NCBI GenBank assembly: GCA_963815935.1
Contig: CAWFIL010000008.1
Span: 162,088-226,087 of the forward strand
Direction of reading: 5' to 3'
Source of the DNA: an uncultured bacterium
GTDB lineage: Bacteria; Patescibacteriota; Saccharimonadia; Saccharimonadales; UBA4665
Length of the DNA stretch: 64,000 nucleotides
Part shown: piece after piece, positions 47,039 to 64,000 of the stretch
Position numbering within the stretch: position 1 is the stretch's first letter
Layout: every line of letters begins with the position of its first letter
Translations under genes and position numbers: made by a program
The notes under the pieces: generated by a model
Databases searched by the model: none
What the model was told of the DNA's origin: nothing
Seen by the model: only the letters and a program-made list of their open reading frames with translations

Positions 47039-47097
47039 AGTGCAAACAATATACCATACTTGATATTTTGCATACAACTACAAAGCATAAGCTTATT

Positions 47098-50983: not shown

Positions 50984-51052
50984 ATTGGTATTATAGCGCA
51001 CCGCATCCAGCGCTTGCGCGATTAACAGAGAGGCGCTACTATAAAGTGGTTT

Positions 51053-51595
51053 ATGAACGAGAAGAAGCAAGACCTACCATTCAAGAAGCTTGGTGACCGC
51101 CTAAAAACGATCCGTCAAAAGATGCACGAAAGTGTGGCCGAAGTCTCTGGTGCTGTCGAGATCGACGAGCCCATGCTACAGCGCATTGAACAAGGTGCAG
51201 AGCGTCCGAGCGAAGATATCCTGATGCTTCTGATTAGTCATTTTGGCATGCATGACGACGAAGCTGCCGGTCTATGGCAACTAGCTGGTTATGATCAGCC
51301 CCGCGCTCACGATCATGACAGTGATGACACCAATAATGGCAAGGCCACTATCCTGGTTATGGCTGTTGACCCGCGGGTGATCTACAGTGATGGTGTGCAG
51401 GTAACCGCCAACAACAATGGTGTAGTTATCTCGTTCTCTCAGAACAACGGCAACCAGAATCCACTGACGACCGCTAAGATCGGCATGAGCCGCGAGCAAG
51501 CCCAGGGTGTTGTCCGGGCGCTCCAAGATGCCATGGTCCATTCCGAGCCGAAGCAGCTTTCTGACGGCTTTCACAACAAAGACCAAGCAAATTAG
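51053..51595 (+). CDS. XRE-family HTH protein with an uncharacterised C-terminal domain
   Basis: LGDRLKTIRQKMHESVAEVSGAVEIDEPMLQRIEQG. Divergent from murB. Confidence 0.7.
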   Translation: MNEKKQDLPFKKLGDRLKTIRQKMHESVAEVSGAVEIDEPMLQRIEQGAERPSEDILMLLISHFGMHDDEAAGLWQLAGYDQPRAHDHDSDDTNNGKATILVMAVDPRVIYSDGVQVTANNNGVVISFSQNNGNQNPLTTAKIGMSREQAQGVVRALQDAMVHSEPKQLSDGFHNKDQAN

Positions 51596-54199: not shown

Positions 54200-56023
54200 A
54201 TGGGAAACGTGAGAAAAACTACTACTACTCAAACCGCCAAGAGGCCATCATCAGTTTCAGGCAAGAAGAAAGTTTCAAATACTTCTTGGTTAGCGCGCAT
54301 GCGCATGACGCGCTATGGCAAGCCGCTGGTGTATGTATTTGTTTTTATGCTCATTGGGGTGGGTACGCTAGCGTACACCTCAGCGGCTACCACAACATAT
54401 GGCATGTGGGGTGGCGATGTAACCCCCAAGATTATTACGGCTGATGATCGCCATGACCTTGAGCTTGGCATGAAGTTCAAACCAACGGTCGCTGGCTATG
54501 TTACGGGCGTACGTTTCTATAAGGGCGCTCAGAATAAAGGTACACATACAGGAAGCCTATGGAACTCTAACGGCCACCTGTTGGCCACGGTCACATTCGA
54601 GAACGAGACGGCAAACGGTTGGCAAACGGCCGCCTTTGACCATCCTGTTAGTGTTGCTGCGAATGTGACATATGTAGTGTCTTACCATGCGCCAATGGGT
54701 CGGTATTCGGTTAACTTCCATTACTTTAGCGAAAGTTCACGTCAGCACAAAAAACTGGTTGCTCTTAAGGCTAGCAAGCATAGCGCCAATGGAGTGTATA
54801 AATACGGCAATGGTACTAGGTTCCCCGACGAGGATGGCTCCGGAGCTAACTACTGGGTAGATGTTGTTTTTACCAACAAGCTATTTAACGCACCAGAAGC
54901 ACCTGCGGCGCCCGGTAACCTTACTGCAAATGTCCAGAGTGATAAAAGCGTAGTCCTCCGTTGGCAGGCAAGCAGTAGTGCTAGTCCGATCGCTGCGTAC
55001 CAAGTATATCGCGACAGCCAACAGCTTGCCACGACCGCGGATACCAGCTACCAAGATACGACCGCCGAGGCTGGCAAAACGTATACATACGACGTCCGTG
55101 CGGTTGATAGTACGGGTGCCAAGTCGGCAGCTTCAATCGGGGTAGTTGTCGGTATTCCTTCCAACCCAAGCAGTGGCGGAAGTAGTAGCGGCAATGGCGG
55201 TAGCAGCGGCGGATCTGGGTCTAACTCTGGATCGGGTTCTTCGGGCAGTAATACGGGTGGCAACTCAAGCGGCGGTAGCCCTAGTGGTCCTAGTACGGGC
55301 AGCGCAGCGGATCTCTTTAATGCCTCCAAAAAAGAGATTGCTATGGAGCTGGTCTCGAGTGCCGAGAATTCCTCGCTCAACTGGAAGGCGCAGTATGCAT
55401 ATATCGAAGATATCGGTGACGGTCGCGGTTACACTGGGGGCATCATCGGCTTCTGCTCCGGTACGAGTGACATGCTGGCTATGATTCAGTATTATAACCA
55501 GATACAGCCAGGCAATATTCTTGCTAAATACATCCCAGCCCTGCAAAAGGTCAATGGAACTGCTTCGCACTCTGGCCTAGGTGATGCGTTCGTAAATGAT
55601 TGGAAGGCGGCCGCCAAAGATGTCAAGTTCCAGGAGGCGCAGGACTACGAGCGTGATACGGTATACTTCAACCCCTCGGTCAACCAGGCTATTGGTGACG
55701 GCCTGCATGCGCTTGGGCAATTTACCTACTACGATGCCATGGTGATGCATGGCCCTGGTAATGATCCGGTGAGCTTTGGTGGCATCCGTGCTACGGCTAT
55801 GAAGAAGGCTAAAACTCCCGCACAGGGCGGCGACGAGACTGCGTACATCAACGCTTTCCTCGACGCCCGTAAGGCGGCCATGCTCACCGAGGCAGCACAC
55901 GACAACACCGATCGTGTCGATACCGAACAGCGCGTATTTTTGCAGCAAAGCAACCTCAACCTAGACCCGCCACTTCGTTGGACAGTGTATGGCGACGCAT
56001 ACGCAATAACAACCAATCCCTAG
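54200..56023 (+). CDS. Secreted or anchored multidomain protein: DUF4082, fibronectin type III, G/S linker, GH46 chitosanase
   Basis: TM/signal at residues about 40-60. DUF4082-like segment GMKFKPTVAGYVTGVRFYKG...GWQTAAF. Fn3 segment LRWQAS...YQVYRD...YTYDVRAVD. GH46 core ELVSSAENSSLNWKAQYAYIEDIGDGRGYTGGIIGFCSGT from nt 55310. Confidence 0.88.
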   Translation: MGNVRKTTTTQTAKRPSSVSGKKKVSNTSWLARMRMTRYGKPLVYVFVFMLIGVGTLAYTSAATTTYGMWGGDVTPKIITADDRHDLELGMKFKPTVAGYVTGVRFYKGAQNKGTHTGSLWNSNGHLLATVTFENETANGWQTAAFDHPVSVAANVTYVVSYHAPMGRYSVNFHYFSESSRQHKKLVALKASKHSANGVYKYGNGTRFPDEDGSGANYWVDVVFTNKLFNAPEAPAAPGNLTANVQSDKSVVLRWQASSSASPIAAYQVYRDSQQLATTADTSYQDTTAEAGKTYTYDVRAVDSTGAKSAASIGVVVGIPSNPSSGGSSSGNGGSSGGSGSNSGSGSSGSNTGGNSSGGSPSGPSTGSAADLFNASKKEIAMELVSSAENSSLNWKAQYAYIEDIGDGRGYTGGIIGFCSGTSDMLAMIQYYNQIQPGNILAKYIPALQKVNGTASHSGLGDAFVNDWKAAAKDVKFQEAQDYERDTVYFNPSVNQAIGDGLHALGQFTYYDAMVMHGPGNDPVSFGGIRATAMKKAKTPAQGGDETAYINAFLDARKAAMLTEAAHDNTDRVDTEQRVFLQQSNLNLDPPLRWTVYGDAYAITTNP

Positions 56024-56068
56024 CTGAGTGCGTTGTTTAGCTACGAGCGCAGTAAGTGTGTAGTAATC

Positions 56069-56077
56069 TGTTATAAT
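56069..56077 (+). promoter_or_regulatory. Extended -10 (TGTTATAAT) for tRNA-Arg(CCG)
   Basis: It ends 8 nt before the tRNA 5' end. Confidence 0.5.
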
Positions 56078-56085
56078 AGCCGCAT

Positions 56086-56162
56086 GCGCCCGTAGCTCAG
56101 CTGGATAGAGCGTTGGTTTCCGGTACCAAAGGCCGGGGGTTCGAATCCCTTCGGGCGTACCA
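56086..56162 (+). tRNA. tRNA-Arg (anticodon CCG), CCA encoded
   Basis: Acceptor GCGCCCG/CGGGCGT and anticodon arm TTGGT-TTCCGGT-ACCAA. Confidence 0.9.
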
Positions 56163-56186
56163 CGTATAGAAGTATTCCCTAAAATT

Positions 56187-57227
56187 ATGATAAGAGTAGG
56201 CTTAGTAGGTTTGCCCAACGCAGGCAAGAGCACCTTGTTCAATTTTCTGACTGGCGCCGAAGCGCTCATTGCTCCCTATCCGTTTTCGACCGTTACGCCC
56301 AACAAGGCAAACCTAAAGTTTTACGACAAAACTGCCGACGACTTGGCTTTGGCGGTTAAGGCCCCCGATGTCTTGCGCACAGAAGTTGAAGTGTGGGATA
56401 TAGCCGGGTTGATTGAGAATGCCAGCCAAGGCGAGGGTCTGGGCAATGAGTTTCTGGGGCAGATAAAAGATTGTGATGTTATCGTCCATGTTGTACGAGT
56501 TACTAAAGATAGCACGCCAGACTCCATAGCAGCTGATCTCAGGACTGTGTTGACCGAGGTTGCACTATTTGATCACAAGTGTCTGCTCAAGCCATTCGAG
56601 AAGGCGCGTCGCATGGCCCGTCTTTATCCAGGTAGCACTAGCCATATGCGAGCCGATCACGTCTTTAGCAAGGCATATTATGGCACTCAAGAGGGCAAGC
56701 TAGCTGCTGACGTGGTTACTGACAAGGAGTTGGATGAACTGAGAGAGGTTGGTCTAGTGTCGACAAAGCCACGTATCGTGCTGTTCAACGTGGATACTAC
56801 CGACACCGAGGCAATCACTGGTATCCGCAGCCCCGACCTGTCAGAGAACCTGCTGGAGCTTTCTGCTCTGCTCTCGATGTCTGCCGAGGAGCGGGCGTTT
56901 TTGGGCTACGACGATGAGCCCATCCGACGGTTTTTGGAGCAATACTGCCAGCAACTGCTAGAAAAGGGCAGGGCCAAACGATTTTATACCGTGGGGCATC
57001 TAGGCGTTGGCCAGTGGGTTATAGGCGTTGATGCCGATGCCAAAAATTGTTCCCAGCTAGTGCACGGCGAGCTGAGCGATATGCTCAAAGGCGTAAAAGT
57101 AGCACGCCCCGCCGACTTTATGCAGTGTATAAGCTGGCAATCGGTCACTAAGCAAGGCTTGGCACGCAAGTATGGACCGGGGTATATCCCTCATGACGGG
57201 GATGTCTTGTATTTTGAGACTACCTAG
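56187..57227 (+). CDS. ychF: YchF/OLA1-like P-loop GTPase/ATPase
   Basis: G1 motif GLPNAGKSTLFN, G3 motif DIAGL, and GEGLGNEFLGQIKDCDVIVHVVR. Confidence 0.8.
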   Translation: MIRVGLVGLPNAGKSTLFNFLTGAEALIAPYPFSTVTPNKANLKFYDKTADDLALAVKAPDVLRTEVEVWDIAGLIENASQGEGLGNEFLGQIKDCDVIVHVVRVTKDSTPDSIAADLRTVLTEVALFDHKCLLKPFEKARRMARLYPGSTSHMRADHVFSKAYYGTQEGKLAADVVTDKELDELREVGLVSTKPRIVLFNVDTTDTEAITGIRSPDLSENLLELSALLSMSAEERAFLGYDDEPIRRFLEQYCQQLLEKGRAKRFYTVGHLGVGQWVIGVDADAKNCSQLVHGELSDMLKGVKVARPADFMQCISWQSVTKQGLARKYGPGYIPHDGDVLYFETT

Positions 57228-57257
57228 CGATCAGCTGTAGTAATTTATGGAATCTTG

Positions 57258-57285
57258 TTGACAAGACTTCCTCTATATTTATATC
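57258..57285 (+). promoter_or_regulatory. Candidate promoter of the 57316-63000 operon
   Basis: TTGACA, 16 nt spacer, TATATC. RBS AAGGGGA precedes ATG 57316. Confidence 0.4.
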
Positions 57286-57315
57286 TTTAAGGCGGGAAAT
57301 ATAAGGGGAAAAATT

Positions 57316-58509
57316 ATGCCAATACCGCAAATGGAAGCTTTGTGGGCTTCTAATCCTAATCTTGATTTAGCTGATGGACAGCCAGAGGAGTTCGCACCTT
57401 TAGTGGAGCACCTGGCTGCAAACATTGCCGCGAAGACCGCTGCACTCGAAGCAGAAGGGCACAGTATTGAAGTGCTTGGTCCAGAATGGAGCCGTGCCAA
57501 CCCGGTTGAAGCTGGTCGACTGCACGCCAAGGCTATTCTTGCTACCTATAGCAATACTTATGCATTGCCAAATAAGGATCCTCTCGCCAATCAAGCGGCC
57601 GTTGAGTCGGGCGAACTAGATCTATACTTTATGGCTGTTGATGGGAAGGTGACCGGCACTACATGTTTGGTGGACGTAGGTGGTGGCCGTGCAGAGCTGG
57701 GCCGTTCGGCCAGTGCTGGCGGCAGCGGTAACACCATTATCCAGGATATGCGCATTCTTGACTGGCTGACCCGCCAGGAGGTTTCGGACAAGTACCACAC
57801 GCTCTTTACCACACTGCGTAATGCACCTGATCGTGTGATTGAGGGCGACGATAGCGAATGTTTCGTTATGCGTGGCGGGCAGGCAATCACCGGCCACTGG
57901 AAGAAGTTTCCGGGGCTTATGGTGAGCGGCGTTGCACCACTATATCTTAAGCATGGCGCGCTTGAGCAGTTCACTTGTGCCTCATTGTCGCGTAATCGTC
58001 TCGACCCAACACGTCCGTTGTACGTTGAGGATGAGACTGCGGCGCGTTTTGTCGGGGACTGGCACAAGTTTTACGGTCTGCCTCAGCCGCAAGTGGGCGA
58101 AGGCAGTGGACAGGCCTCACCGCTTGCTTTCGAAGCACACTACCCTCCGGCCGAAAGCGGTCTTACGGGTTTGGTACATGCCGATGTTGTGGCTTCGGCT
58201 GGCGAGCGTTCACGGGGTCTTACTGACTGTCTGTCCGAGGTTGAGGTAGCCGGCTCTCCATTCACCCAGATTGTGATGCCTATCGATCGCGACACGCGAG
58301 CATTACAGGCTGCGTTGCTCGAGAGTGGCTACCAGGTCTACGGCTACCAGCCAGCCGACGAGTTGAGCAGTGCTTCATTGATGTTTGGCAAGGTTCGACC
58401 AGGGACCCCAGTCGTTCCCACGCATTGGAGTGAGGCCGGTAACGTCAGCCCGTTCTGGCCGGATGAAGGGCTACACGGGTTGGCTGAGGCAGTCGCGTCG
58501 CAATGGTAG
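57316..58509 (+). CDS. Hypothetical protein, possibly a tandem GNAT-like (Fem-like size) fold
   Basis: 397 aa with no clear motif. GRAELGRSASAGGSGNTIIQDM and a C-terminal ...ALLESGYQVYGYQP are only vaguely GNAT-like. Confidence 0.6.
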   Translation: MPIPQMEALWASNPNLDLADGQPEEFAPLVEHLAANIAAKTAALEAEGHSIEVLGPEWSRANPVEAGRLHAKAILATYSNTYALPNKDPLANQAAVESGELDLYFMAVDGKVTGTTCLVDVGGGRAELGRSASAGGSGNTIIQDMRILDWLTRQEVSDKYHTLFTTLRNAPDRVIEGDDSECFVMRGGQAITGHWKKFPGLMVSGVAPLYLKHGALEQFTCASLSRNRLDPTRPLYVEDETAARFVGDWHKFYGLPQPQVGEGSGQASPLAFEAHYPPAESGLTGLVHADVVASAGERSRGLTDCLSEVEVAGSPFTQIVMPIDRDTRALQAALLESGYQVYGYQPADELSSASLMFGKVRPGTPVVPTHWSEAGNVSPFWPDEGLHGLAEAVASQW

Positions 58510-59696
58510 CCCCCGAACTTACTTCTGGCGCGCTTTTGGACCAGCAAGTACTGGACACTGAATTTGAGGTAGTGGCCGTAGAGTCACGATCAGTCGAGCT
58601 TGACCTATGCGAGCCGATGACCTTATCGTTTGGTACCTTCGCTAGCCGACCTTCGGGTTGGCTAGCGCTGAGCTGCGAAGCAAACGGTCGCGCAGTAATG
58701 GGCTACGGTGAAGGTGCTACCTTGCCAGAGCCGGTGTTCACTGATGACAGTGGCCACAATATCGCGAACAACATGCAGGAACTTGTTGCCGATATCGCCA
58801 GCCAAGAGGATCATAGCGTACGGGCTGCCATCCAAACTATTCGTGATCATGCATTTGTCGACGGTGCACGCTACCCGACGGCTCGATTGGCCGCCGAAAT
58901 GGCCGTTTTGGATGTGGCCACTAAATCGCAGCAGACTTCTGTGCGAGAGTTCATTGGGTTGCCGGCCTCCATAACTGAGGTGCCGTATGGCAAAAGCATT
59001 GGCGGTGCCAATGAGACTGCCATTCTGCGCCAAGCGGAGGTTGCACTCGAAAATAATGCCCAGAAGATTAAAATAAAGGTCTCTCCGGGCTTGTTCGAGG
59101 ATGTGGTGAGTGCGGTTGCTGTGCTTAGGCGTGCGCATCCTGGCGTCGATGTCATGGTGGACGCCAACGGCGGCTTTGATCCTACCAACCCCGATCACCT
59201 GCGTATGCTCCGTGGCTTAGACGAACAAGGATTGATCATGGTAGAAGAACCGGTGTCGCGTGTTGGTCGGCTCCGTGGTTTGTCTGCAGTGCGCGCTTTA
59301 CGCCAGGCACTACCCGACTTGCGTACTCCGATTTGTCTGGATGATAGCCTGCAGACGCTTGGAGATTGTGAAACTGCCGTCGATGAAGGGCTTGCAGATA
59401 TCATTAACATCAAGCCGGGCCGGATTGGTTCATTTATGCAGTCACTTGAGCTTGCAGATTATGCAAACACACGGGAGGTTGGCGTCATGGTTGGTGGTAT
59501 GCTTGAGGGTACTCCGGGCCGTTGTATGACAACGCTACTGGGTGCCTACTGTATGTATCAAGGATGTCAGGTACCAGGCGATCTGTCGTTGGCGCAAGAA
59601 CGTCTGGCGAGTGATCTGGTGCCACCAGAAAAGCAATTAAGCCTGAGCCCGCGTGGCAATATTCTGTTGCCCGACGGCCTAGGATGGGGATTTTAG
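58503..59696 (+). CDS. Enolase-superfamily enzyme of the MLE subgroup (dipeptide epimerase / N-acylamino-acid racemase / OSBS-like)
   Basis: KxK in AQKIKIKV. Metal ligands in MVDANGGF, MVEEP and CLDDS. Second catalytic Lys in INIKPGRIG. Confidence 0.85.
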   Translation: MVAPELTSGALLDQQVLDTEFEVVAVESRSVELDLCEPMTLSFGTFASRPSGWLALSCEANGRAVMGYGEGATLPEPVFTDDSGHNIANNMQELVADIASQEDHSVRAAIQTIRDHAFVDGARYPTARLAAEMAVLDVATKSQQTSVREFIGLPASITEVPYGKSIGGANETAILRQAEVALENNAQKIKIKVSPGLFEDVVSAVAVLRRAHPGVDVMVDANGGFDPTNPDHLRMLRGLDEQGLIMVEEPVSRVGRLRGLSAVRALRQALPDLRTPICLDDSLQTLGDCETAVDEGLADIINIKPGRIGSFMQSLELADYANTREVGVMVGGMLEGTPGRCMTTLLGAYCMYQGCQVPGDLSLAQERLASDLVPPEKQLSLSPRGNILLPDGLGWGF

Positions 59697-59698
59697 AT

Positions 59699-60748
59699 AT
59701 GGCTATAGAAGTTATGTACCAGCCGTTAGATATGCCAGATACCGAAGCACTACGGGCAGAGTATGGGGTTGAATTTGTCGAAGCGACACCAAATCAAACG
59801 AGTGACTTTGGGGCGATGTGTGATCGCCTACTCCAAGAACGCATTGCGCTCGACGGGCAGTGTGCCAACGTTGGCATAGTCGCGACCGGTCCAGCGGTAA
59901 TATACCAACCATCTGTCTTTTTGGCGACGAAACCAACTACCGAGCAAATTAAGCAAATTAATGATCACGAAACAGGCCGTGTTGCCGATTATACCGTTGG
60001 CGTGCAGGCGGAACTTGCTAAGGTCCCCATCGTTGAATCGGGGGATCGCATGGTTGATCTACGCACGTGGTTTGCTGCGGAGGATGTGGCGACGACCTTT
60101 AGTGATAAGCCCTACCATGCCGCATGTGGCGAATGGGCAGGCCAGCCTCGTGTGTTCTGGGCGCGGGAGGGTTTTGCACAGCGATTGGCCTTGATGGGTA
60201 GGCTGCTCGATACTGCTGATGTTGACTTGCACTTTGAAGACGCCTTTAGGCCTGTTGGCGTGCAGGAGGGGCTTTTTAAACGACGCGTTGCTTGGACTAA
60301 GGCAGATCACCCAGATTGGACCGACGAGCAAATCATAACTGAGGCCCAGAGCAAGACCGCCGTAAAGCCCCGACTAGCATCCCATAAGGGTGGCGCAGCT
60401 GCTGATGCACGGCTTCGCGATCGGGCAACCAACGAGCTGCTCGACTTTGGCCACGAATATCCCGATGGCGGTGCGCTGGTCTTTCCGCGTACGCCGTTTA
60501 TTACTGCTGAACAATGGCGCAACCGGCAGCTCTTCCAGGTGGCTGCAGGCCTGAGTGGTCTGACGCTGTACGTAGGCGAAGACTGGCACGTCAGCTATGG
60601 CGACAATCTTGGCTCACTCGACGAACACGGTCAAGTGCGGCCTGATTACGTGGCTCAGTACGGTCCCATCAAAGACTTTGACCGCCGGGATGGCACCATC
60701 ACTGCGATTTATGGGCCCAACGAGATGGATCAGGTGTTTGACCACTAA
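59699..60748 (+). CDS. M15 (VanX/DdpX-like) D-Ala-D-Ala-type dipeptidase with an N-terminal extension of about 170 aa
   Basis: DAFRP (compare DGYRP), SHKGGAAAD (SxHxxGxAxD) and EDWHVSY (ExWH) Zn-site motifs. Confidence 0.75.
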   Translation: MAIEVMYQPLDMPDTEALRAEYGVEFVEATPNQTSDFGAMCDRLLQERIALDGQCANVGIVATGPAVIYQPSVFLATKPTTEQIKQINDHETGRVADYTVGVQAELAKVPIVESGDRMVDLRTWFAAEDVATTFSDKPYHAACGEWAGQPRVFWAREGFAQRLALMGRLLDTADVDLHFEDAFRPVGVQEGLFKRRVAWTKADHPDWTDEQIITEAQSKTAVKPRLASHKGGAAADARLRDRATNELLDFGHEYPDGGALVFPRTPFITAEQWRNRQLFQVAAGLSGLTLYVGEDWHVSYGDNLGSLDEHGQVRPDYVAQYGPIKDFDRRDGTITAIYGPNEMDQVFDH

Positions 60749-60801
60749 TATTGCATATTTCATAATACAATGCTGCATACGCTATAATACGAGAGGAAAC
60801 G

Positions 60802-61743
60802 ATGATCGAAGGACTGAACGTACCGTTCATGGAACAGGACGAATCAATGCACATGCAAGACCGTGTTGCTGAAGTGACTAAAGTTATCCGCAATGACGCG
60901 CTGATTGAAGCCGCCCCTACGCTAGACTATTTTGACCCGAATTGCCTTGAGCAGCCTGGTGGCAGTATCTACTACGGTACTGGTCTTACGACTCCTAATG
61001 CTATTTCGGAAGGGTTACCGTTTGACACGCTCGGCATGATGCTGACAGCCGAAAAAGTGCGTCGGGCGGGCAATCTCGAAACGGTGTACCATCACATTGC
61101 CGACACGCACGCCAAAACGAACAGCTGGATTGACCCGGTAGCTGTCGATGCAGTTGCCGACCGGACGGTCGGTGCCCTTGAGCAAATTAAGCACAATCTT
61201 GGTTTGGAACATTTCCAGTTTGTATTGTCATCCTCGTTCGATAATGACCCAGAATATCAGGCGCTCGTTGAAAGCTTTAGCAGCTCAGAGGAGCACGAGT
61301 ATGTCCGCCGCGAAATGGCCGATATGGAATGGTACCGTACCCGTGGCGATGTGCGTATTAAGATGGGCTGGGTTATCCAGGCCAAGGAAACCGACATGGG
61401 CTTTGACGAGCGGCGTTTTGACCGCGAGTATCTGCGCTTTCATCCCGGCCAGATGTCCTTTGTCTATACAAAGCCGGGTCGCACCTTTGACACCAGCCGC
61501 CCAAAGGCGTCACCGTACATCTCGGTAGCTGGAGAACCCCGTCTAAGGCTTGCACCCGGCATCGATGTCGACGAAGTGTTCGCTGCCACTGGCGACCCCA
61601 ATCTGGGCGGCGCCAAGAAACACTTAGCCACCATTGTCCGTGCCTATGAAGATTTGTATGGCAGCCTGGGCAAAATCGGACACGATGGCGTTACGTTGAA
61701 CGGTAAAATCCAACATATTATTAACACTTGTTTTGCTACTTAG
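60802..61743 (+). CDS. Hypothetical protein with a faint class-Ic aaRS-like (TyrRS/TrpRS/CDPS-fold) pattern
   Basis: 313 aa. YYGTGLTTPN...(26 aa)...VYHHIADTHA and IKMGWVIQ loosely mirror the PxxG...xxDxHA and GxDQ spacing of TrpRS/TyrRS. There is no HIGH or KMSKS motif. The gene ends 6 nt before tyrS. Confidence 0.6.
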   Translation: MIEGLNVPFMEQDESMHMQDRVAEVTKVIRNDALIEAAPTLDYFDPNCLEQPGGSIYYGTGLTTPNAISEGLPFDTLGMMLTAEKVRRAGNLETVYHHIADTHAKTNSWIDPVAVDAVADRTVGALEQIKHNLGLEHFQFVLSSSFDNDPEYQALVESFSSSEEHEYVRREMADMEWYRTRGDVRIKMGWVIQAKETDMGFDERRFDREYLRFHPGQMSFVYTKPGRTFDTSRPKASPYISVAGEPRLRLAPGIDVDEVFAATGDPNLGGAKKHLATIVRAYEDLYGSLGKIGHDGVTLNGKIQHIINTCFAT

Positions 61744-61749
61744 CTTATT

Positions 61750-63000
61750 ATGGAATTTATGAACCAACCTCTAGATCACGAGCCAATCACACGTGAAGCC
61801 GTTGACCAAATGCTCGAAACGGCACAGATCGTCTTGCCTGAAGACGGTGTATTTAACAAATTAGCAAGCGCCGAAGAAGAAGGCCGTGCGCTGCGGGTCA
61901 AGATGGGCTTTGACCCAACCAGCCCCGACTTACATCTGGGGCATGCAGTGTCTATGCACATGCTTCGCCGCTTCCAGGATATGGGGCATACGCCGGTCAT
62001 TATCATCGGTGACTTTACTGGCCGAATTGGTGACCCAACCGGTCGCAACCAAGCGCGTCCCCTTGTATCTCCCGACGAGATTGCACGGAACTCCGAGACG
62101 TATATCGACCAGCTAGGCAAGGTACTTGATATATCCAAGATTGAAGTCAGGCGGAACTCCGAATGGCTCGAAGGTATGACACTTACCGACGTTATTCACC
62201 TCTTGTCGCAAGGTACGCTGTCTCAGGTAATTACCCGGGATGACTTTCGTCAGCGCCTAGATGCCGGCTCCCCAATCGCATTGCACGAAATCGTATACCC
62301 GTTACTGCAGGGTATGGACTCAGTTGCCATAGATGCTGACATCGAAATCGGCGGTGTCGACCAGCTATACGCTTTTCAGGCTGCTCGCAGCCTGCAAGGG
62401 AACAAGGGAGTTGACCCAGAGGCACTAGTTATGATGCCGCTATTACGTGGTCTTGATGGCACAAAAAAAATGAGTAAAAGTCTGGGCAACTACGTAGGCC
62501 TAGCCGACCAGCCAAGTGATATGTTTGGCAAGGTCATGTCGACACCCGACTCTGTGCTCGAAGAATACCTGCGCTTAACATCAACTTTTGAACATGACGA
62601 AGTTCAGGCTATGCTTGATAGTATCAAGGCTGGTGAAAACCCTATGAACGTCAAGCTCAAACTCGCTCGCAATATTACGACAACCTACCATGACGAGGCT
62701 GCCGCCGACGAGGCCGAGAGCCACTTTAATCGGCAGTTCCGTAGCCGCAGCGAAGCTGATCGTGAATACCGAATAGTTGATATTGCACGGGGCGTAACTT
62801 CGCTTGTCGACATCCTTATGGAAGCTGGTGTGGCAGCGAGCCGCAACCAAGCGCGTCGGCTTATCGGCGAAGGCGGGGTGCGTATTAACGGCCAAAAGAC
62901 CACACTAGACGAGGCCGACAACCTCACGGACGTTGACGGCTTGCGCATTCGCGCTGGCAAACGGCAATTCTTCCAGACACGTCTGGCCGAGGAGTCATAG
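61750..63000 (+). CDS. tyrS: Tyrosine--tRNA ligase
   Basis: HIGH motif HLGH, KMSKS present, and a C-terminal S4-like domain (SRNQARRLIGEGGVRING). Confidence 0.95.
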   Translation: MEFMNQPLDHEPITREAVDQMLETAQIVLPEDGVFNKLASAEEEGRALRVKMGFDPTSPDLHLGHAVSMHMLRRFQDMGHTPVIIIGDFTGRIGDPTGRNQARPLVSPDEIARNSETYIDQLGKVLDISKIEVRRNSEWLEGMTLTDVIHLLSQGTLSQVITRDDFRQRLDAGSPIALHEIVYPLLQGMDSVAIDADIEIGGVDQLYAFQAARSLQGNKGVDPEALVMMPLLRGLDGTKKMSKSLGNYVGLADQPSDMFGKVMSTPDSVLEEYLRLTSTFEHDEVQAMLDSIKAGENPMNVKLKLARNITTTYHDEAAADEAESHFNRQFRSRSEADREYRIVDIARGVTSLVDILMEAGVAASRNQARRLIGEGGVRINGQKTTLDEADNLTDVDGLRIRAGKRQFFQTRLAEES

Positions 63001-63086
63001 CAACGGTACCCTTGCCATAACCGAGGGTAGTATTGTATAGTATTCGCTAATGACCGCAGGGCATTTGTCTTGCAGTCATTAGCTTT

Positions 63087-63171
63087 GCAGGGATAGTGAA
63101 GCGGTCAAACACAGCTGACTGTAAATCAGCCCTCTCCGAGTTCGGGGGTTCGAATCCCTCTCCCTGCACCA
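63087..63171 (+). tRNA. tRNA-Tyr (anticodon GTA), long variable arm, CCA encoded
   Basis: Acceptor GCAGGGA/TCCCTGC and anticodon arm GCTGA-CTGTAAA-TCAGC. 85 nt. Confidence 0.9.
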
Positions 63172-63174
63172 AAC

Positions 63175-63204
63175 AAAAAAGCCGGCAGTATAGCCGGCTT
63201 TTTT
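63175..63204. terminator. Bidirectional hairpin terminator
   Basis: AAAAAAGCCGGC-agtata-GCCGGCTTTTTT lies between tRNA-Tyr (+) and pheA (-). Confidence 0.8.
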
Positions 63205-63218
63205 GTTTGGTGAGATGC

Positions 63219-64000
63219 CTAGATAGTTTCACCTGCTTGGTAGGTGCCCAACTCTCGCCACTGGGCCCCGAGCCCGTCGAGCTCGTCTAGAGCCTTTTCC
63301 ATGGCTGGGTCTGTAGCCCCGGCGGCACAGTCCAGGTAGAACGCATATCGCCATGGGCGGCCTTGGATGGGCCGCGACTCCACCTTGGTCAACCCTATGC
63401 CGGCAGTAGCAAAACAGCCCAATGCGGCGTGTAGTGTCCCCGGTGCAAGCTCATCCTCGCCGTCAGTCAGGCGGTCGATGAGTAATGAGGTCTTATTTGC
63501 CTGTGCGCGTCTGGCTGGGTCATCTTCGGCGCTGCGACCGAGCACTAAAAAGCGGGTAAAGTTGTTGGGATCATTCTCGACGCCTTCGCGAAGTATTGCC
63601 AAGTTATGCCGCTCGGCATTATTTTTGCCAGCAATCGCTGCGGCCGAAGGCTCGCCGAGATCTTTAATGAAAACCACGCTCCCGGCAGTGTCATAAGCTG
63701 TGTGCCTTTTCGCCTGAGGTAGCTCCCGCCCCAAGAAGTCTGTGCATTGCTCCAGAGCGACAGGGTGTGAGTAAACGTCCCGGATATCTTCGATGCGTGC
63801 CCCCGGCAAGCCAATCAGGCTATGGTGGATGCTCAAGAAGACCTCACCCATAATCGAGACATTGCCTGTCTTGCGTAGCAAGTCATATACGGGTGCAATG
63901 GACCCAACTAGTGAGTTCTCTACGGCAGACATGCCGTAATCGGCCCGGCCGTCGGCCACCGACCCAAAAACATCGGCAAACGTATCCATATACTGCGCTT
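63219..64000 (-). CDS. pheA: Prephenate dehydratase with a C-terminal ACT domain (N-terminus outside the window)
   Basis: ADYGMSAVENSLVGSI, TRFLVLG, and ACT-type LGCFATAGIGLTKVESRP. The frame stays open to nt 64000. Confidence 0.85.
   Translation of the reverse strand, partial: AQYMDTFADVFGSVADGRADYGMSAVENSLVGSIAPVYDLLRKTGNVSIMGEVFLSIHHSLIGLPGARIEDIRDVYSHPVALEQCTDFLGRELPQAKRHTAYDTAGSVVFIKDLGEPSAAAIAGKNNAERHNLAILREGVENDPNNFTRFLVLGRSAEDDPARRAQANKTSLLIDRLTDGEDELAPGTLHAALGCFATAGIGLTKVESRPIQGRPWRYAFYLDCAAGATDPAMEKALDELDGLGAQWRELGTYQAGETI

What the first reader, a model, noticed from the sequence alone, without database searches (positions are those of the whole stretch)
57316..63171. Four-gene operon joining a dipeptide-epimerase-like enzyme, an extended VanX-like dipeptidase and two unknown proteins to tyrS and tRNA-Tyr
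A candidate promoter (57258-57285) is followed by six tightly packed or overlapping + strand elements:
- an unknown 397-aa protein, possibly a tandem GNAT fold and of Fem-transferase size
- an enolase-superfamily MLE-subgroup enzyme with the full KxK / D / E / D / K catalytic set, as in L-Ala-D/L-Glu epimerases and N-succinylamino-acid racemases
- an M15 VanX/DdpX-type Zn dipeptidase with an extra N-terminal region of about 170 aa
- an unknown 313-aa protein
- tyrS, only 6 nt further on
- tRNA-Tyr, followed by a strong terminator

The first terminator appears only after tRNA-Tyr. Epimerase plus D,D-dipeptidase suggests processing of D-amino-acid dipeptides. One possibility is salvage of peptidoglycan stem-peptide fragments, possibly host-derived, into usable L-amino acids. 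The two unknowns and the link to Tyr charging suggest something beyond simple recycling, such as aminoacyl-tRNA-dependent peptide modification.
Basis: partly seen in the sequence, partly recalled or inferred. Interest (0 to 1): 0.65.

Follow-up and report, generated by a model that had tools for sequence, protein, structure and literature searches.

The report
Tyrosine-chirality gene cluster beside tyrS
A Saccharibacteria gene cluster joins three enzymes that probably flip an amino acid between its mirror-image forms to a previously undescribed, motif-stripped copy of tyrosyl-tRNA synthetase. The same partnership recurs across many ultra-small bacteria and archaea, which points to an unstudied way of handling D-tyrosine at the tRNA-charging step.

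Summary
In detail: pA, pB, pC, pD, tyrS and tRNA-Tyr lie packed on the + strand, ending at a very strong terminator.

- **The two "unknowns".** pA has a confident GNAT fold in its N-terminal half. pD is a full-length structural homologue of minimal archaeal TyrRS (Foldseek E 1.5e-9) but lacks the HIGH motif.
- **pB and pC.** pB is closer to N-succinylamino-acid racemases than to dipeptide epimerases. pC has the VanX catalytic residues.
- **Comparison across 67 loci.** In Patescibacteria and Woesearchaeota, pD sits beside TyrRS and/or tRNA-Tyr. It is fused to TyrRS in four database clusters.
- **Interchangeable racemisation modules.** pD also sits beside one of three unrelated modules: GNAT+enolase+M15, GCS2 ligase+enolase+C26 hydrolase, or a plain Asp/Glu-type racemase.
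- **Side findings.** Some loci carry a second TyrRS with a Gln→Met change at the α-amino site. Others carry an archaeal-type TyrRS/tRNA-Tyr pair.

Best reading: pA–pB–pC form an acylate–racemise–deacylate stereoinversion module, coupled to a TyrRS-derived protein that acts on tyrosine or tyrosyl-tRNA, most likely for D-Tyr control. The peptidoglycan-dipeptide salvage idea is not specifically supported. pD's reaction and the direction of inversion remain inferred. The pD family appears undescribed.

The parts
57258..57287 (+). Promoter-like site upstream of pA (TTGACA-18-TATCTT)
   Evidence: It matches 10 of 12 consensus positions. The -35 and -10 boxes are conserved in position in L004, L008 and L005, while the surrounding spacer has diverged. 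It has not been shown to be active.
57316..58509 (+). pA: 397-aa protein with an N-terminal GNAT-fold acyltransferase domain (about residues 50-225) and an unassigned C-terminal alpha/beta domain. Proposed N-acyltransferase of the stereoinversion module.
   Evidence: There is no Pfam, NCBIfam or PDB sequence match. The AF2 model has pLDDT 92.4. Foldseek's top hits are GNAT amino-acid and polyamine N-acyltransferases (PaiA E 5.6e-7, probability 1.0). Two tandem-GNAT proteins align over 350-375 columns, but with TM of only 0.26-0.27. The family comprises 71 clusters, nearly all from Saccharibacteria/Patescibacteria, and is syntenic with pD.
58503..59696 (+). pB: enolase-superfamily, MLE-subgroup racemase of the NSAR/OSBS type. 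Proposed N-acyl-amino-acid racemase.
   Evidence: It has MR_MLE_N and MR_MLE_C domains. The best NCBIfam match is menC_lowGC_arch at 143 bits, below the 200.65 cut-off. The closest PDB sequences are NSAR/OSBS enzymes: 1wue 3.8e-31, 1wuf 1e-28, 1sja 2e-25. Catalytic residues are K190/K192, D220, E248, D280 and K304, plus R307, the equivalent of NSAR second-shell R266 (PMC12006748).
59684..60748 (+). pC: VanX-type (M15) zinc hydrolase with an extra N-terminal region of about 165 aa. Proposed deacylase of the module.
   Evidence: PF01427 matches at E 6.6e-8 and 33 bits (cut-off 27) over residues 168-309. R189, H234-x6-D241 and E299-x2-H302 are present. The N-terminal region has no Pfam match, and there is no PDB sequence match.
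60738..60788 (+). Two overlapping promoter-like sites in the 53-nt pC-pD spacer
   Evidence: Both match 10 of 12 positions. A TATAAT-like box just upstream of pD's ribosome-binding site recurs in several of the aligned relatives, most clearly L004, L023 and L025. The spacer has no stable RNA structure. In rearranged relatives pD is transcribed divergently from pB, pA and pC.
60802..61743 (+). pD: 313-aa TyrRS-fold paralogue without the HIGH motif, from an apparently undescribed family. Proposed tyrosine / tyrosyl-tRNA-binding partner of TyrRS.
   Evidence: The AF2 model has pLDDT 92.5. All top 50 Foldseek matches are TyrRS, mostly the 306-aa M. jannaschii enzyme (E 1.5e-9, TM about 0.6, 12-16% identity). 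Sequence matches are only weak: PRK08560 at E 1e-3 and eukaryotic TyrRS at E about 0.5. The HIGH slot reads L72-P73-F74-D75. Y167, K187, W190, P238, Y239 and R247 are invariant, and D101, H103 and D174 nearly so, across 243 members. The family has 525 clusters at 50% identity.
61750..63000 (+). tyrS: canonical bacterial (Thermus-like) tyrosyl-tRNA synthetase
   Evidence: TIGR00234 scores 326 bits against a cut-off of 113.8. It has HLGH at 62, Y-P-L-L-Q-G-M-D at 183, GGVDQ and KMSKS at 240. It is the only TyrRS in the 64-kb window.
63012..63041 (+). Promoter-like site in front of tRNA-Tyr, overlapping a weak hairpin at 63007-63029
   Evidence: TTGCCA-18-TATAGT matches 10 of 12 positions. The -10 region is conserved in L004 and L008. 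The hairpin is -12 kcal/mol with z = -1.8.
63087..63171 (+). tRNA-Tyr (GTA), bacterial type: G1-C72, long variable arm, CCA encoded
   Evidence: Found by ARAGORN and Rfam at 60.4 bits, and aligned with related tRNAs. tRNA-Tyr lies in or next to the pD cluster in 21 of the 67 related loci, besides the window.
63168..63212 (.). Strong bidirectional intrinsic terminator shared with the convergent pheA-like gene
   Evidence: It has a 19-bp perfect stem flanked by an A-run and a U-run, at -32.4 kcal/mol and z = -9.9. None of 200 shuffles folded as well.

Best explanation
This is the Saccharibacteria form of a gene cluster conserved across Patescibacteria (CPR) and some DPANN archaea. It couples an amino-acid stereoinversion module to tyrosine charging.

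**Shown**
- pA has a GNAT acyltransferase fold.
- pB is an NSAR-type enolase-superfamily enzyme with all catalytic residues.
- pC is a VanX-type zinc hydrolase with all catalytic residues.
- pD has the fold of a minimal TyrRS but lacks HIGH.
- Across genomes, pD keeps company with TyrRS, tRNA-Tyr and one of three unrelated racemisation modules.

**Inferred mechanism**
1. pA N-acylates the alpha-amino group of an amino acid, most likely tyrosine or another aromatic or hydrophobic residue.
2. pB inverts C-alpha of the N-acyl amino acid.
3. pC removes the acyl group. The net result is a driven D/L interconversion, following the same logic as the Geobacillus NSAR pathway.
4. pD keeps a TyrRS-like amino-acid pocket (Y167, E/Q171, D174, D101, H103). 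It binds tyrosine or the tyrosyl end of Tyr-tRNA-Tyr made by the adjacent TyrRS.

**My committed guess**
pD serves chiral control. It removes or diverts D-Tyr-tRNA-Tyr, and the module returns D-Tyr to the L-Tyr pool.

**Confidence by layer**
- About 0.6 that the cluster is a stereoinversion module functionally tied to a TyrRS-derived tyrosine or tyrosyl-tRNA-binding protein.
- About 0.3 for the specific D-Tyr proofreading and recycling role.
For: **Fold and family**
- pD: AF2 pLDDT 92.5, and the top 50 PDB matches are all TyrRS.
- pA: GNAT fold.
- pB: nearest to NSAR/OSBS structures, and it has the R266-equivalent Arg.
- pC: M15 catalytic residues are present.

**Non-orthologous displacement**
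Four kinds of locus keep pD while swapping its partners:
- GNAT+enolase+M15
- GCS2 ligase+enolase+C26 hydrolase
- Asp/Glu-type racemase alone
- YbaK-type editing domain plus archaeal-type TyrRS

**Synteny counts**
Among 21 distinct loci with at least 4 kb on both sides of pD, 86% have a class Ib aaRS within 7 kb and 90% have a racemase module.

**Link to TyrRS**
- All three linked aaRS genes tested (L003, and two in L001) pass the tyrS equivalog cut-off. Motif alignment shows the others are TyrRS-type.
- pD is fused to a complete TyrRS in four cluster representatives, in both domain orders, and to a GNAT domain in a fifth. The L010 fusion is one uninterrupted 756-aa ORF.
- tRNA-Tyr, and no other tRNA recurrently, abuts pD.

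**TyrRS variants**
- Several loci have two TyrRS genes. The cluster-embedded subtype has Gln→Met at the alpha-amino-binding position.
- A second, D-Tyr-discriminating TyrRS is a known bacterial answer to D-Tyr (PMC11005379).

**Pocket conservation in pD**
- Y167 is invariant.
- D174 is kept in 231 of 243 members, D101 in 240, and H103 in 238.
- Position 171 is Glu (191) or Gln (52).
- This matches the Y151/Q155/D158 tyrosine network of MjTyrRS and Y178/E182 of CDPS (PMC3105412).

**Operon signals**
- The pA, pB and pC reading frames overlap.
- The promoter upstream of pA is conserved.
Against: - No activity has been measured for any of the four proteins.
- The direction of inversion is unknown. 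From general knowledge, M15 enzymes characteristically cleave in front of a D-residue, which would favour L→D (production of a D-amino acid) rather than recycling.
- Apart from the central HHIADTHA block, the pD-TyrRS residue correspondences come from my manual alignment guided by secondary structure. They do not come from a 3-D superposition, and global hhalign placed some blocks differently.
- Q193, which I first took for the MjTyrRS Q173 equivalent, is not conserved.
- The invariant G59-x-G61 loop, K187 and R247 could form a new phosphate site, so loss of ATP use is not proven.
- pA lacks a canonical Q/RxxGxG/A CoA loop, and its acyl donor is unknown.
- Duplicated TyrRS genes and a separate archaeal-type TyrRS/tRNA pair fit a dedicated biosynthetic channel at least as well as proofreading.
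- Whether these genomes lack Dtd could not be tested.
- Tyrosine as the module's substrate is inferred only from neighbours.
Confidence: 0.45

Rival explanations
1. A biosynthetic, tRNA-dependent D-tyrosyl (or tyrosyl) transfer system. The module makes D-Tyr from L-Tyr, and TyrRS loads it on tRNA-Tyr. In some genomes this is done by a dedicated Gln→Met variant or an archaeal-type orthogonal pair. pD then acts like a cyclodipeptide synthase or Fem/MprF-type transferase and moves the tyrosyl group from the tRNA to an acceptor such as an envelope component, a small molecule or a peptide.
For: - pD lacks HIGH and usually has Glu where TyrRS has Gln, as CDPSs do (PMC3105412).
- TyrRS-pD fusions resemble aaRS-transferase fusions such as LysX (my own knowledge).
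- Several tiny genomes carry duplicated TyrRS and duplicated or archaeal-type tRNA-Tyr next to pD.
- M15 hydrolases typically release a D-residue, which implies the L→D direction (my own knowledge).
- A YbaK-type editing domain sits beside pD in type-4 loci.
Against: - No conserved acceptor-related, membrane or export gene accompanies pD.
- The minimal loci are just pD plus a racemase.
- The CDPS catalytic Ser (Gly+2) is an invariant Gly in pD.
- No CDPS appears among the top 50 structural matches.
- 52 of 243 members have Gln rather than Glu at position 171.
- The window itself has only one, canonical TyrRS and an ordinary tRNA-Tyr.
Confidence: 0.25
2. pD is a non-catalytic TyrRS-like subunit or sensor. 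It either pairs with TyrRS as a pseudo-dimer partner, as in the double-length TyrRS of trypanosomatids, or senses tyrosine to regulate TyrRS or the module.
For: - pD has a whole-chain TyrRS fold of the same length as a minimal TyrRS.
- The ATP motif is lost.
- Natural double-length TyrRS-pD and pD-TyrRS proteins exist.
- pD is tightly coupled to tyrS, with only a 6-nt gap in the window.
Against: - About 20 pocket-region residues are invariant or nearly so down to 24% identity. That is more typical of an enzyme or a specific binder than of a degenerate subunit.
- pD resembles archaeal-type TyrRS, whereas the neighbouring TyrRS is usually the bacterial type, which makes a symmetric dimer interface less likely.
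- A pseudo-subunit role does not explain the constant association with racemases.
Confidence: 0.12
3. One reading: salvage of peptidoglycan-derived D-amino-acid dipeptides. pB would be an L-Ala-D/L-Glu-type dipeptide epimerase and pC the dipeptidase, with the adjacency to tyrS and tRNA-Tyr incidental or only regulatory.
For: - pB gives weak matches to Ala-Glu epimerase models (54.5 and 46.8 bits).
- pC belongs to the VanX dipeptidase family.
- Saccharibacteria have peptidoglycan genes, and MurB is in the window.
- An S66 LD-carboxypeptidase lies about 5.5 kb from the cluster in L001.
Against: - pB scores far below the epimerase cut-offs of 500 and 343 bits, and is 10-20 orders of magnitude closer to NSAR/OSBS structures.
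- In other lineages the module is replaced by GCS2+enolase+C26 or by a plain racemase, while pD and TyrRS stay.
- No murein-recycling gene was seen inside any of the clusters. Neighbours were screened only for the partner families.
- pD occurs in Woesearchaeota MAGs. From general knowledge, these archaea are not expected to make murein.
Confidence: 0.08
4. pD is still an ATP-dependent ligase with a rebuilt phosphate site. It would join tyrosine (D or L) to an amine or to tRNA, and pA would then acylate the product. This parallels MshC (a CysRS paralogue) plus MshD (a tandem GNAT) in mycothiol synthesis.
For: - Invariant G59-x-G61 sits at the end of strand 1, and K187, R247 and the conserved R233-P-K235-x-S237 loop sit in the KMSKS region.
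- An aaRS paralogue paired with a large GNAT protein has the MshC/MshD precedent (my own knowledge).
- One family member is a GNAT-pD fusion.
Against: - Both HIGH histidines are replaced in the whole family.
- By my manual alignment, the acidic residue of the GGxDQ ribose-binding motif is also replaced (I192).
- From my own knowledge, known aaRS-derived ligases keep HIGH.
- This model does not explain why a racemase is the constant partner, or why pA can be replaced by a GCS2 ligase.
Confidence: 0.07

Closest known systems
NSAR-based D-to-L amino-acid conversion pathway of Geobacillus kaustophilus (Sakai et al. 2006, as cited in PMC12006748)
   Same: It uses the same three-step logic and two of the same protein kinds. 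A GNAT acyltransferase N-acylates the amino acid, an NSAR/OSBS-subfamily enolase racemises the N-acyl amino acid, and a metallohydrolase removes the acyl group. Known NSARs prefer hydrophobic side chains.
   Different: - The hydrolase here is a VanX-type M15 enzyme, not an M20 aminoacylase (M20 is my own knowledge).
- The GNAT protein is 397 aa with an extra domain and no Pfam match.
- pB scores below the family's curated cut-off.
- The direction and the acyl donor are unknown.
- The known pathway has no TyrRS-like protein, TyrRS or tRNA.
Minimal archaeal tyrosyl-tRNA synthetase (M. jannaschii TyrRS, 306 aa)
   Same: It is the best structural match over the whole chain, at about the same length. 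The ADxHA block is shared, as is the Y-x3-(Q/E)-x2-D helix that forms the tyrosine pocket.
   Different: - Sequence identity is only 12-16%.
- HIGH is replaced by LPFD.
- KMSKS reads RPKAS.
- pD has no significant match to any tyrS model.
- The CP1 helix region is shortened.
- pD is not expected to activate tyrosine with ATP in the canonical way.
Cyclodipeptide synthases (AlbC, Rv2275; PMC3105412)
   Same: They are TyrRS/TrpRS-fold proteins that lost HIGH. They have Tyr and Glu (Y178/E182) where TyrRS has Tyr and Gln, and they use the pocket to hold the aminoacyl part of an aa-tRNA. One member, Rv2275, uses Tyr-tRNA-Tyr.
   Different: - pD lacks the catalytic Ser two residues after the conserved Gly (invariant Gly instead).
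- pD keeps a KMSKS-region loop and a C-terminal helical part.
- pD matches no CDPS Pfam model.
- Its closest structures are TyrRS, not CDPS.
- 21% of family members have Gln rather than Glu.
D-Tyr protection systems: D-aminoacyl-tRNA deacylase (Dtd) and the selective second TyrRS TyrZ of Bacillus subtilis (PMC11005379; Williams-Wagner 2015)
   Same: Both address the same functional problem: TyrRS mischarges D-Tyr, and cells add a deacylase and/or a second, more selective TyrRS. Several pD loci carry a second TyrRS with an altered alpha-amino site.
   Different: pD has no similarity to Dtd. A proofreading role for a synthetase-catalytic-domain paralogue would be unprecedented. The selectivity of the Gln→Met TyrRS variants is untested.
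L-Ala-D/L-Glu epimerase murein-peptide recycling (YcjG/YkfB) and VanX/DdpX D-Ala-D-Ala dipeptidases
   Same: Both pair an MLE-subgroup epimerase with a peptidase that acts on D-residue-containing dipeptides. pC has the VanX zinc ligands and catalytic Glu.
   Different: - pB is nearer NSAR than the dipeptide epimerases.
- pC is 354 aa with an extra N-terminal region.
- The conserved neighbours are TyrRS, tRNA-Tyr and pD, not murein-recycling genes.
aaRS-partner arrangements: LysX (LysRS-MprF fusion), VlmL/VlmA, and the double-length pseudo-dimeric TyrRS of Leishmania (my own knowledge)
   Same: In each, a synthetase is fused to, or encoded beside, the protein that uses its aa-tRNA, or beside a degenerate copy of itself. 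TyrRS-pD fusions occur in both domain orders.
   Different: The partner here is a TyrRS-fold protein of unknown activity, and it is always accompanied by a racemisation module.

Membership tests
Enolase superfamily, MLE subgroup, NSAR/OSBS subfamily (pB) | KxK motif, three metal-ligand acids (D/E/D) and a second catalytic Lys | tested here: met
   K190/K192, D220, E248, D280 and K304 align with the same residues of 1wue.
Enolase superfamily, MLE subgroup, NSAR/OSBS subfamily (pB) | Second-shell Arg three residues after the second catalytic Lys (AmyNSAR R266), conserved throughout the subfamily | tested here: met
   K304-P-G-R307. The role of the feature is described in PMC12006748.
Enolase superfamily, MLE subgroup, NSAR/OSBS subfamily (pB) | Score above the curated family cut-off (TIGR01928, 200.65 bits) | tested here: not met
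   143 bits. It is the best NCBIfam hit but is below the cut-off, so pB is a divergent relative rather than a curated member.
Enolase superfamily, MLE subgroup, NSAR/OSBS subfamily (pB) | Racemisation of N-succinyl or N-acyl amino acids | not testable with these tools
   This needs an enzyme assay.
o-Succinylbenzoate synthase (menaquinone pathway) | Menaquinone (men) gene context | tested here: not met
   Every pB-type enolase detected in the pD-anchored loci (33 loci) sits inside the pD cluster. No men gene was called in the window or in the annotated loci L001-L003.
L-Ala-D/L-Glu (dipeptide) epimerase | Score above the curated equivalog cut-offs (NF041118, 500 bits; NF011708, 343 bits) | tested here: not met
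   54.5 and 46.8 bits. PDB dipeptide epimerases match at E 2.5e-13 to 2e-7, against 4e-31 for NSAR/OSBS.
VanX / M15 D-Ala-D-Ala dipeptidase (pC) | Pfam PF01427 match above the gathering score | tested here: met
   33 bits against 27, over residues 168-309.
VanX / M15 D-Ala-D-Ala dipeptidase (pC) | Zinc ligands H-x6-D and H, the catalytic Glu of ExxH, and the transition-state Arg | tested here: met
   H234...D241, E299-D-W-H302 and R189 by motif inspection. The correspondence to VanX H116/D123/E181/H184/R71 is from my own knowledge.
VanX / M15 D-Ala-D-Ala dipeptidase (pC) | Single-domain protein of about 200 aa that hydrolyses D-Ala-D-Ala | tested here: not met
   pC is 354 aa, and its N-terminal region of about 165 aa has no family match. 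Its substrate is untested.
GNAT acyltransferases (pA) | GNAT fold | tested here: met
   The top 50 Foldseek matches are GNAT proteins. The best E-value is 5.6e-7, with probability 0.99-1.0.
GNAT acyltransferases (pA) | Match to a GNAT sequence model and a canonical Q/R-x-x-G-x-G/A acyl-CoA loop | tested here: inconclusive
   No Pfam match even at E of 5. The loop between strand 4 and helix 3 reads R130-S-A-S-A-G-G-S-G-N. It is conserved but longer than the canonical motif.
Fem-type aminoacyl-tRNA transferases (pA) | FemAB-family sequence or structure match | tested here: not met
   No FemAB or other Pfam match. No Fem protein is among the top 50 structural matches.
Class Ic aminoacyl-tRNA synthetase / TyrRS (pD) | Rossmann-fold catalytic domain with TyrRS topology | tested here: met
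   The top 50 PDB matches are all TyrRS, at E 1.5e-9 to 8e-7 and TM 0.5-0.6 over about 340 columns.
Class Ic aminoacyl-tRNA synthetase / TyrRS (pD) | HIGH signature motif | tested here: not met
   The slot reads L72-P73-F74-D75. P73 and D75 are nearly invariant in 243 members. The slot was assigned by alignment guided by secondary structure.
Class Ic aminoacyl-tRNA synthetase / TyrRS (pD) | KMSKS signature motif | tested here: inconclusive
   The region reads R233-P-K235-A-S237-P-Y. It is conserved but not KMSKS, and the loop alignment is uncertain.
Class Ic aminoacyl-tRNA synthetase / TyrRS (pD) | Score above the tyrS model cut-off | tested here: not met
   No TIGR00234 match. The only hit is PRK08560 at E 1e-3 and 18 bits against a cut-off of 220. 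There is no PF00579 match.
Class Ic aminoacyl-tRNA synthetase / TyrRS (pD) | Tyrosine-pocket residues (Mj Y32, Y151, Q155, D158) | tested here: inconclusive
   Candidate equivalents are Y57 (Y or F in 226 of 243), Y167 (243/243), E/Q171 (243/243) and D174 (231/243). The mapping is manual and has not been confirmed by superposition. hhalign confirms only the ADxHA block.
Cyclodipeptide synthases (pD) | Catalytic Ser two residues after the conserved Gly, and a CDPS sequence model match | tested here: not met
   G59-T60-G61 with G61 invariant. No Pfam match. No CDPS is among the top 50 structures. The Y-x3-E feature is present in 191 of 243 members.
D-aminoacyl-tRNA deacylase (Dtd) | Dtd fold or sequence | tested here: not met
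   pD has a TyrRS fold. tblastn with E. coli Dtd (sequence recalled from memory) found nothing in the window or in 747 kb of loci. Any proofreading role would be by analogy only.

The most novel reading that the evidence does not exclude
pD founds a new class of synthetase-derived enzymes that act on (D-)tyrosyl-tRNA-Tyr. It would do one of two things. It could be the first chiral proofreading factor built from an aaRS catalytic domain. Or it could be a tRNA-dependent D-tyrosyl transferase fed by a racemisation module and, in some CPR genomes, by a dedicated TyrRS variant (Gln→Met) or a naturally orthogonal archaeal-type TyrRS/tRNA-Tyr pair that coexists with the bacterial tRNA-Tyr.
Probability: 0.3. 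Interest if true: 0.9.

Novelty: new variant of a known kind. Interest (0 to 1): 0.72.

Why it matters
- **Minimal genomes keep it.** CPR bacteria and DPANN archaea have some of the smallest known genomes, yet many retain this cluster of about 5 kb, sometimes with a second TyrRS and a second tRNA-Tyr. That argues for an important, unrecognised function at the border between amino-acid chirality and translation.
- **A new aaRS-derived family.** If pD acts on tyrosyl-tRNA, it adds a new branch to the short list of aaRS-derived enzymes (CDPS, MshC, GluQRS). It would also offer either a new solution to the D-Tyr problem or a new route for putting D-amino acids into cell products.
- **Relevance to genetic-code engineering.** The archaeal-type TyrRS/tRNA pair found beside a bacterial tRNA-Tyr could be a natural counterpart of the orthogonal pairs used in genetic-code expansion.
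- **Directly testable.** All proteins are small, soluble-looking and confidently modelled.

Tried and rejected
- **Sequence searches on the unknowns.** Pfam, NCBIfam and PDB sequence searches gave nothing usable for pA and only a marginal TyrRS hint for pD. Structure prediction was needed.
- **Profile-profile alignment.** hhalign of the pD family against MjTyrRS, archaeal-type TyrRS and bacterial TyrRS was weak: probability 2.6-7%, with only the central block reliable. I therefore do not claim a sequence-level alignment of the whole pocket. I also dropped the Q193 = Mj Q173 correspondence once it proved unconserved.
- **CDPS membership** was considered and rejected (no Ser, no model match, no structural top hit).
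- **Fem-like pA** was considered and rejected.
- **OSBS/menaquinone** was rejected on context.
- **Regulatory RNA.** An Rfam scan of 55900-64000 found only the two tRNAs, with no T-box or other leader.
- **Dtd search.** A search of the window and 747 kb of loci found nothing. This is uninformative, because Dtd need not be linked.
- **Unassigned regions.** Pfam on pC's N-terminal region, pA's C-terminal half and the recurrent 124-aa ORF gave nothing.
- **Literature.** Searches for TyrRS-like paralogues in CPR, Dtd in CPR, and racemases in Saccharibacteria returned no relevant paper.
- **Terminator scan.** The pattern scan missed the real terminator.
- **Unused.** I did not use the third homologue search, because no remaining question depended on it.

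Full report
**1. Observation**

| Element | Coordinates | Relation to previous |
|---|---|---|
| pA | 57316-58509 | – |
| pB | 58503-59696 | 7-nt overlap |
| pC | 59684-60748 | 13-nt overlap |
| pD | 60802-61743 | 53-nt gap |
| tyrS | 61750-63000 | 6-nt gap |
| tRNA-Tyr(GTA) | 63087-63171 | 86-nt gap |

- The promoter-like site at 57258-57287 matches 10 of 12 consensus positions. Its -35 and -10 boxes are conserved in position in three relatives whose spacer has otherwise diverged.
- After the tRNA there is a 19-bp perfect hairpin flanked by A- and U-runs, at -32.4 kcal/mol and z = -9.9. It is shared with a convergent pheA-like gene.
- Two refinements apply. Promoter-like boxes lie in the pC-pD spacer, and a TATAAT-like box recurs there in relatives. 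A promoter-like site with a conserved -10 region, plus a marginal hairpin (z = -1.8), lies between tyrS and the tRNA.
- The region is therefore better described as a cluster with up to three promoters than as a single operon.
- An Rfam scan found no leader RNA.
- GC content is 0.52-0.56 in the cluster, against 0.524 for the window.
- The best homologues, at 76-77% identity, are from Candidatus Saccharimonadales MAGs.

**2. The four proteins**

*pB*
- It has both MR_MLE domains and the full catalytic set: K190/K192, D220, E248, D280, K304.
- Its closest solved relatives are NSAR/OSBS-subfamily enzymes (1wue 3.8e-31, 1wuf 1e-28, Amycolatopsis NAAAR 2e-25). Dipeptide and Ala-Glu epimerases are much weaker, at 2.5e-13 to 2e-7.
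- It carries Arg three residues after the second catalytic Lys (K304-P-G-R307). [quoted passage not shown]
- It scores below the curated cut-off of its best NCBIfam model, 143 against 200.65 bits. It is a divergent relative.

*pC*
- It passes the VanX-family Pfam threshold and has R189, H234-x6-D241 and E299-x2-H302.
- It carries about 165 N-terminal residues with no match to anything.

*pA*
- It has no sequence-model match at all, but it models confidently at pLDDT 92.4.
- Its N-terminal half is a GNAT fold. The best matches are amino-acid and polyamine N-acyltransferases.
- Two tandem-GNAT proteins align along the whole chain, but poorly. No Fem transferase appears.

*pD*
- It also models confidently, at pLDDT 92.5.
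- Its 50 best PDB matches are all tyrosyl-tRNA synthetases, led by the 306-aa M. jannaschii enzyme (E 1.5e-9, TM about 0.6, 12-16% identity).
- pD is thus a whole-length TyrRS-fold paralogue that sequence models barely detect: PRK08560 at E 1e-3 and eukaryotic TyrRS at E about 0.5.

**3. pD anatomy**

- *Central block.* The block H97-H-I-A-D101-T-H103-A-K-T-N107 aligns with the TyrRS LLADLHAYLN block in HMMER and hhalign.
- *HIGH slot.* By alignment guided by secondary structure, the strand-1 motif Y57-Y-G59-T-G61 corresponds to Y32-I-G34 of MjTyrRS. The HIGH slot reads L72-P73-F74-D75.
- *Pocket helix.* The helix before strand 4 carries Y167-x3-E171-x2-D174, where MjTyrRS has Y151-x3-Q155-x2-D158. 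In MjTyrRS these residues, with Y32 and G34, form the tyrosine-binding network. In the cyclodipeptide synthase AlbC, G35/Y178/E182 superimpose on G34/Y151/Q155 and hold the aminoacyl part of an aa-tRNA (PMC3105412).
- *Conservation.* Across 243 family members, down to 24% identity, G59, G61, Y167, K187, W190, P238, Y239 and R247 are invariant. P73, D75, D101, H103, A104, D174, D202, E203 and D207 are nearly so. Position 171 is Glu in 191 members and Gln in 52.
- *Caveats.* Outside the central block the mapping is my own and has not been checked by superposition. Global hhalign placed some blocks differently. One early correspondence, Q193, turned out not to be conserved.
- *CDPS comparison.* The CDPS catalytic Ser position is an invariant Gly in pD.

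**4. Comparative genomics**

This is the main evidence.

- An exhaustive profile search finds 525 clusters of pD relatives at 50% identity.
- I mapped the partner families onto 67 loci from genome and metagenome scans.

Five recurring architectures appear:

| Type | Architecture | Example loci |
|---|---|---|
| 1 | GNAT-enolase-M15-pD-TyrRS(-tRNA-Tyr), or the rearranged form in which pD is divergent from enolase, GNAT and M15 | window, L004, L005, L008, L021-L027; rearranged: L001, L006, L007, L028-L034 |
| 2 | TyrRS-GCS2 ligase-pD-enolase-C26 hydrolase, or GCS2-enolase-C26-pD-TyrRS | L003, L009, L010, L012, L014, L015, L018, L039-L049, L053-L056 |
| 3 | pD next to a PF01177 Asp/Glu-type racemase | L016 Kaiserbacteria, L019 Woesearchaeota, L057-L061, L067 |
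| 4 | tRNA-Tyr-pD-YbaK-type editing domain-archaeal-type TyrRS | L013 Gottesmanbacteria, L050-L052, L064 |
| 5 | pD next to a class I/II aminotransferase | L020, L063, L060 |

- Among 21 distinct loci with at least 4 kb on both sides, 86% have a class Ib aaRS within 7 kb of pD and 90% have a racemase module.
- The three linked aaRS genes tested pass the tyrS equivalog cut-off. Motif alignment shows the rest are TyrRS-type.
- tRNA-Tyr lies in or beside the cluster in 21 of the 67 related loci as well as the window, sometimes directly abutting pD rather than tyrS. No other tRNA recurs like this.
- pD is fused to a full TyrRS in four cluster representatives, in both domain orders, and to a GNAT domain in a fifth. 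The L010 fusion is one uninterrupted 756-aa ORF.
- pD resembles archaeal-type TyrRS, while its neighbour is usually a bacterial Thermus-like TyrRS. The gene order is also repeatedly reshuffled. The linkage is therefore not simply the trace of a recent tandem duplication.

**5. What this implies**

- Three unrelated solutions occupy the same genomic slot next to pD:
  - acyl-CoA-type acyltransferase + N-acyl racemase + M15 hydrolase
  - ATP-dependent carboxylate-amine ligase + enolase + C26 amidohydrolase
  - a cofactor-independent racemase alone
- What they have in common is inversion of an amino acid's alpha-carbon.
- In the first two, an acylating and a deacylating enzyme bracket an enolase-superfamily racemase, which needs an N-acylated substrate. 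[quoted passage not shown]
- That logic is my reading of pA-pB-pC.
- The constant companions (TyrRS, tRNA-Tyr, and a TyrRS-fold protein with a conserved amino-acid pocket) point to tyrosine as the relevant amino acid, and to the tRNA-charging step as the place where pD works.
- The pheA-like gene lies within 7 kb of pD in 38% of well-flanked loci, which fits an aromatic amino-acid theme.

**6. Mechanism: commitment and rivals**

TyrRS is known to mischarge D-Tyr. Cells answer with Dtd and, in some bacteria, with a second TyrRS that discriminates against D-Tyr (PMC11005379).

*Best guess (about 0.3 for this specific version).* The module interconverts D- and L-Tyr, and pD removes or diverts D-Tyr-tRNA-Tyr. 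This needs no further genes and matches the minimal loci of pD plus a racemase. It also fits pD occurring both free-standing and fused to the synthetase, as editing domains do.

*Main rival (about 0.25).* A biosynthetic channel in which D-Tyr is made, loaded on tRNA-Tyr, and transferred by pD to an unknown acceptor.
- For it: the usual D-specificity of M15 enzymes; TyrRS duplications with a Gln→Met change at the alpha-amino-binding position in the cluster-embedded copy; and type-4 loci where pD sits with an archaeal-type TyrRS and a C1-G72, short-variable-arm tRNA-Tyr while the same contig has an ordinary bacterial tRNA-Tyr.
- Against it: no acceptor-related gene is conserved, and the CDPS nucleophile is absent.

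*Lesser rivals.*
- pD as a non-catalytic TyrRS partner or tyrosine sensor.
- pD as an ATP-dependent ligase with a rebuilt phosphate loop.

The more general statement is that this is a stereoinversion module functionally coupled to a TyrRS-derived tyrosine or tyrosyl-tRNA-binding protein. I hold that at about 0.6.

**7. Comparison with known systems, and novelty**

- The racemisation half is a new variant of a known pathway type: a new hydrolase family, an atypical GNAT and a divergent NSAR.
- pD fails the membership tests for TyrRS (no HIGH, no model match), for CDPS (no Ser, no model match) and for Dtd (different fold).
- I found no Pfam or NCBIfam model, no solved structure and no paper for the family.
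- The coupling of a synthetase-fold paralogue to racemases, TyrRS and tRNA-Tyr has no described counterpart that I could find.
- I rate the whole as a new variant of a known kind. I give roughly 0.3 to the reading that pD's chemistry is categorically new.

**8. The window's own copy**

- The window has the type-1 arrangement with a single, canonical TyrRS (HLGH, Y-x3-Q-x2-D, GGVDQ, KMSKS) and an ordinary bacterial tRNA-Tyr.
- No Dtd, second racemase, YbaK, GCS2 or C26 homologue is present in the 64 kb.
- The rest of the window encodes ordinary housekeeping and surface-glycan genes.

Noticed in passing
L003:7296-8582, L012:5938-7218, L010:3654-5921 and others (L006, L014, L015, L017, L018, L031, L032, L047, L049): One subclass of cluster-linked TyrRS has Met in place of the alpha-amino-binding Gln: Y-x3-M-x2-D-S instead of Y-x3-Q-x2-D-S. 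In L012, L047 and L049 the same locus also has a second TyrRS with Gln, but with HLGR and KMSSS motifs. These may be specialised or enantioselective synthetases.
   Followed up: partly
L050:5984-6060 and L050:1546-1632; also L013:612-687, L051, L052: The tRNA-Tyr abutting pD in type-4 loci is the archaeal/eukaryotic kind, with a C1-G72 first pair and a short variable arm. It sits with an archaeal-type TyrRS and a YbaK-like domain. L050 also has a normal bacterial tRNA-Tyr (G1-C72, long variable arm). This looks like a natural orthogonal TyrRS/tRNA pair in a CPR bacterium.
   Followed up: partly
L043:7566 (same sequence in L044:4141): This tRNA-Tyr has C1-G72 but a long variable arm. It lies between a bacterial-type and an archaeal-type TyrRS gene, downstream of pD.
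   Followed up: no
window 63219-63989 (-); also L004, L012, L018, L032, L038, L041, L047-L049, L057: A prephenate-dehydratase (PDT+ACT) gene lies within 7 kb of pD in 38% of well-flanked loci. That is odd for organisms thought to lack aromatic amino-acid biosynthesis. The window copy matches only PDT profile positions 29-179.
   Followed up: partly
L001:14380-14754 (-); L009:6031-6384; L028, L031, L032: A 124-aa ORF with no family match recurs at the edge of both type-1 and type-2 clusters. It has no homologue in the window.
   Followed up: partly
window 45518-47077 (-): A 519-aa protein fuses an N-terminal HTH_3 DNA-binding domain to an EPSP-synthase-family (MurA/AroA) domain. This is an unusual fusion. 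MurB lies nearby at 49955-51070.
   Followed up: no
window 54200-56023 (+), 35764-37521 (-), 43968-45521 (+), 51707-53458 (+): The window is rich in secreted-looking glycan-degrading enzymes: a GH46 chitosanase with DUF4082 and fn3 domains and a Gly/Ser-rich linker, two GH10 xylanase-family proteins, and a HylP-like hyaluronidase-domain protein. Two GT2 glycosyltransferases and two polysaccharide deacetylases are also present.
   Followed up: no
L052 (upstream of the tRNA-Tyr at 7902), minus strand: ARAGORN calls a tRNA with a CTA anticodon (reported as tRNA-Pyl) within a tRNA cluster on a CPR contig. It may be an amber-suppressor-like tRNA.
   Followed up: no
window 63168-63212: The consensus terminator scan did not report the strongest terminator in the region, probably because the stem extends through the A/U runs. 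Folding shows -32.4 kcal/mol.
   Followed up: yes
P0194 (581 aa, from the profile search): This family member has an N-terminal Acetyltransf_6 (PF13480) GNAT domain fused to pD. It is a different GNAT family from pA.
   Followed up: partly
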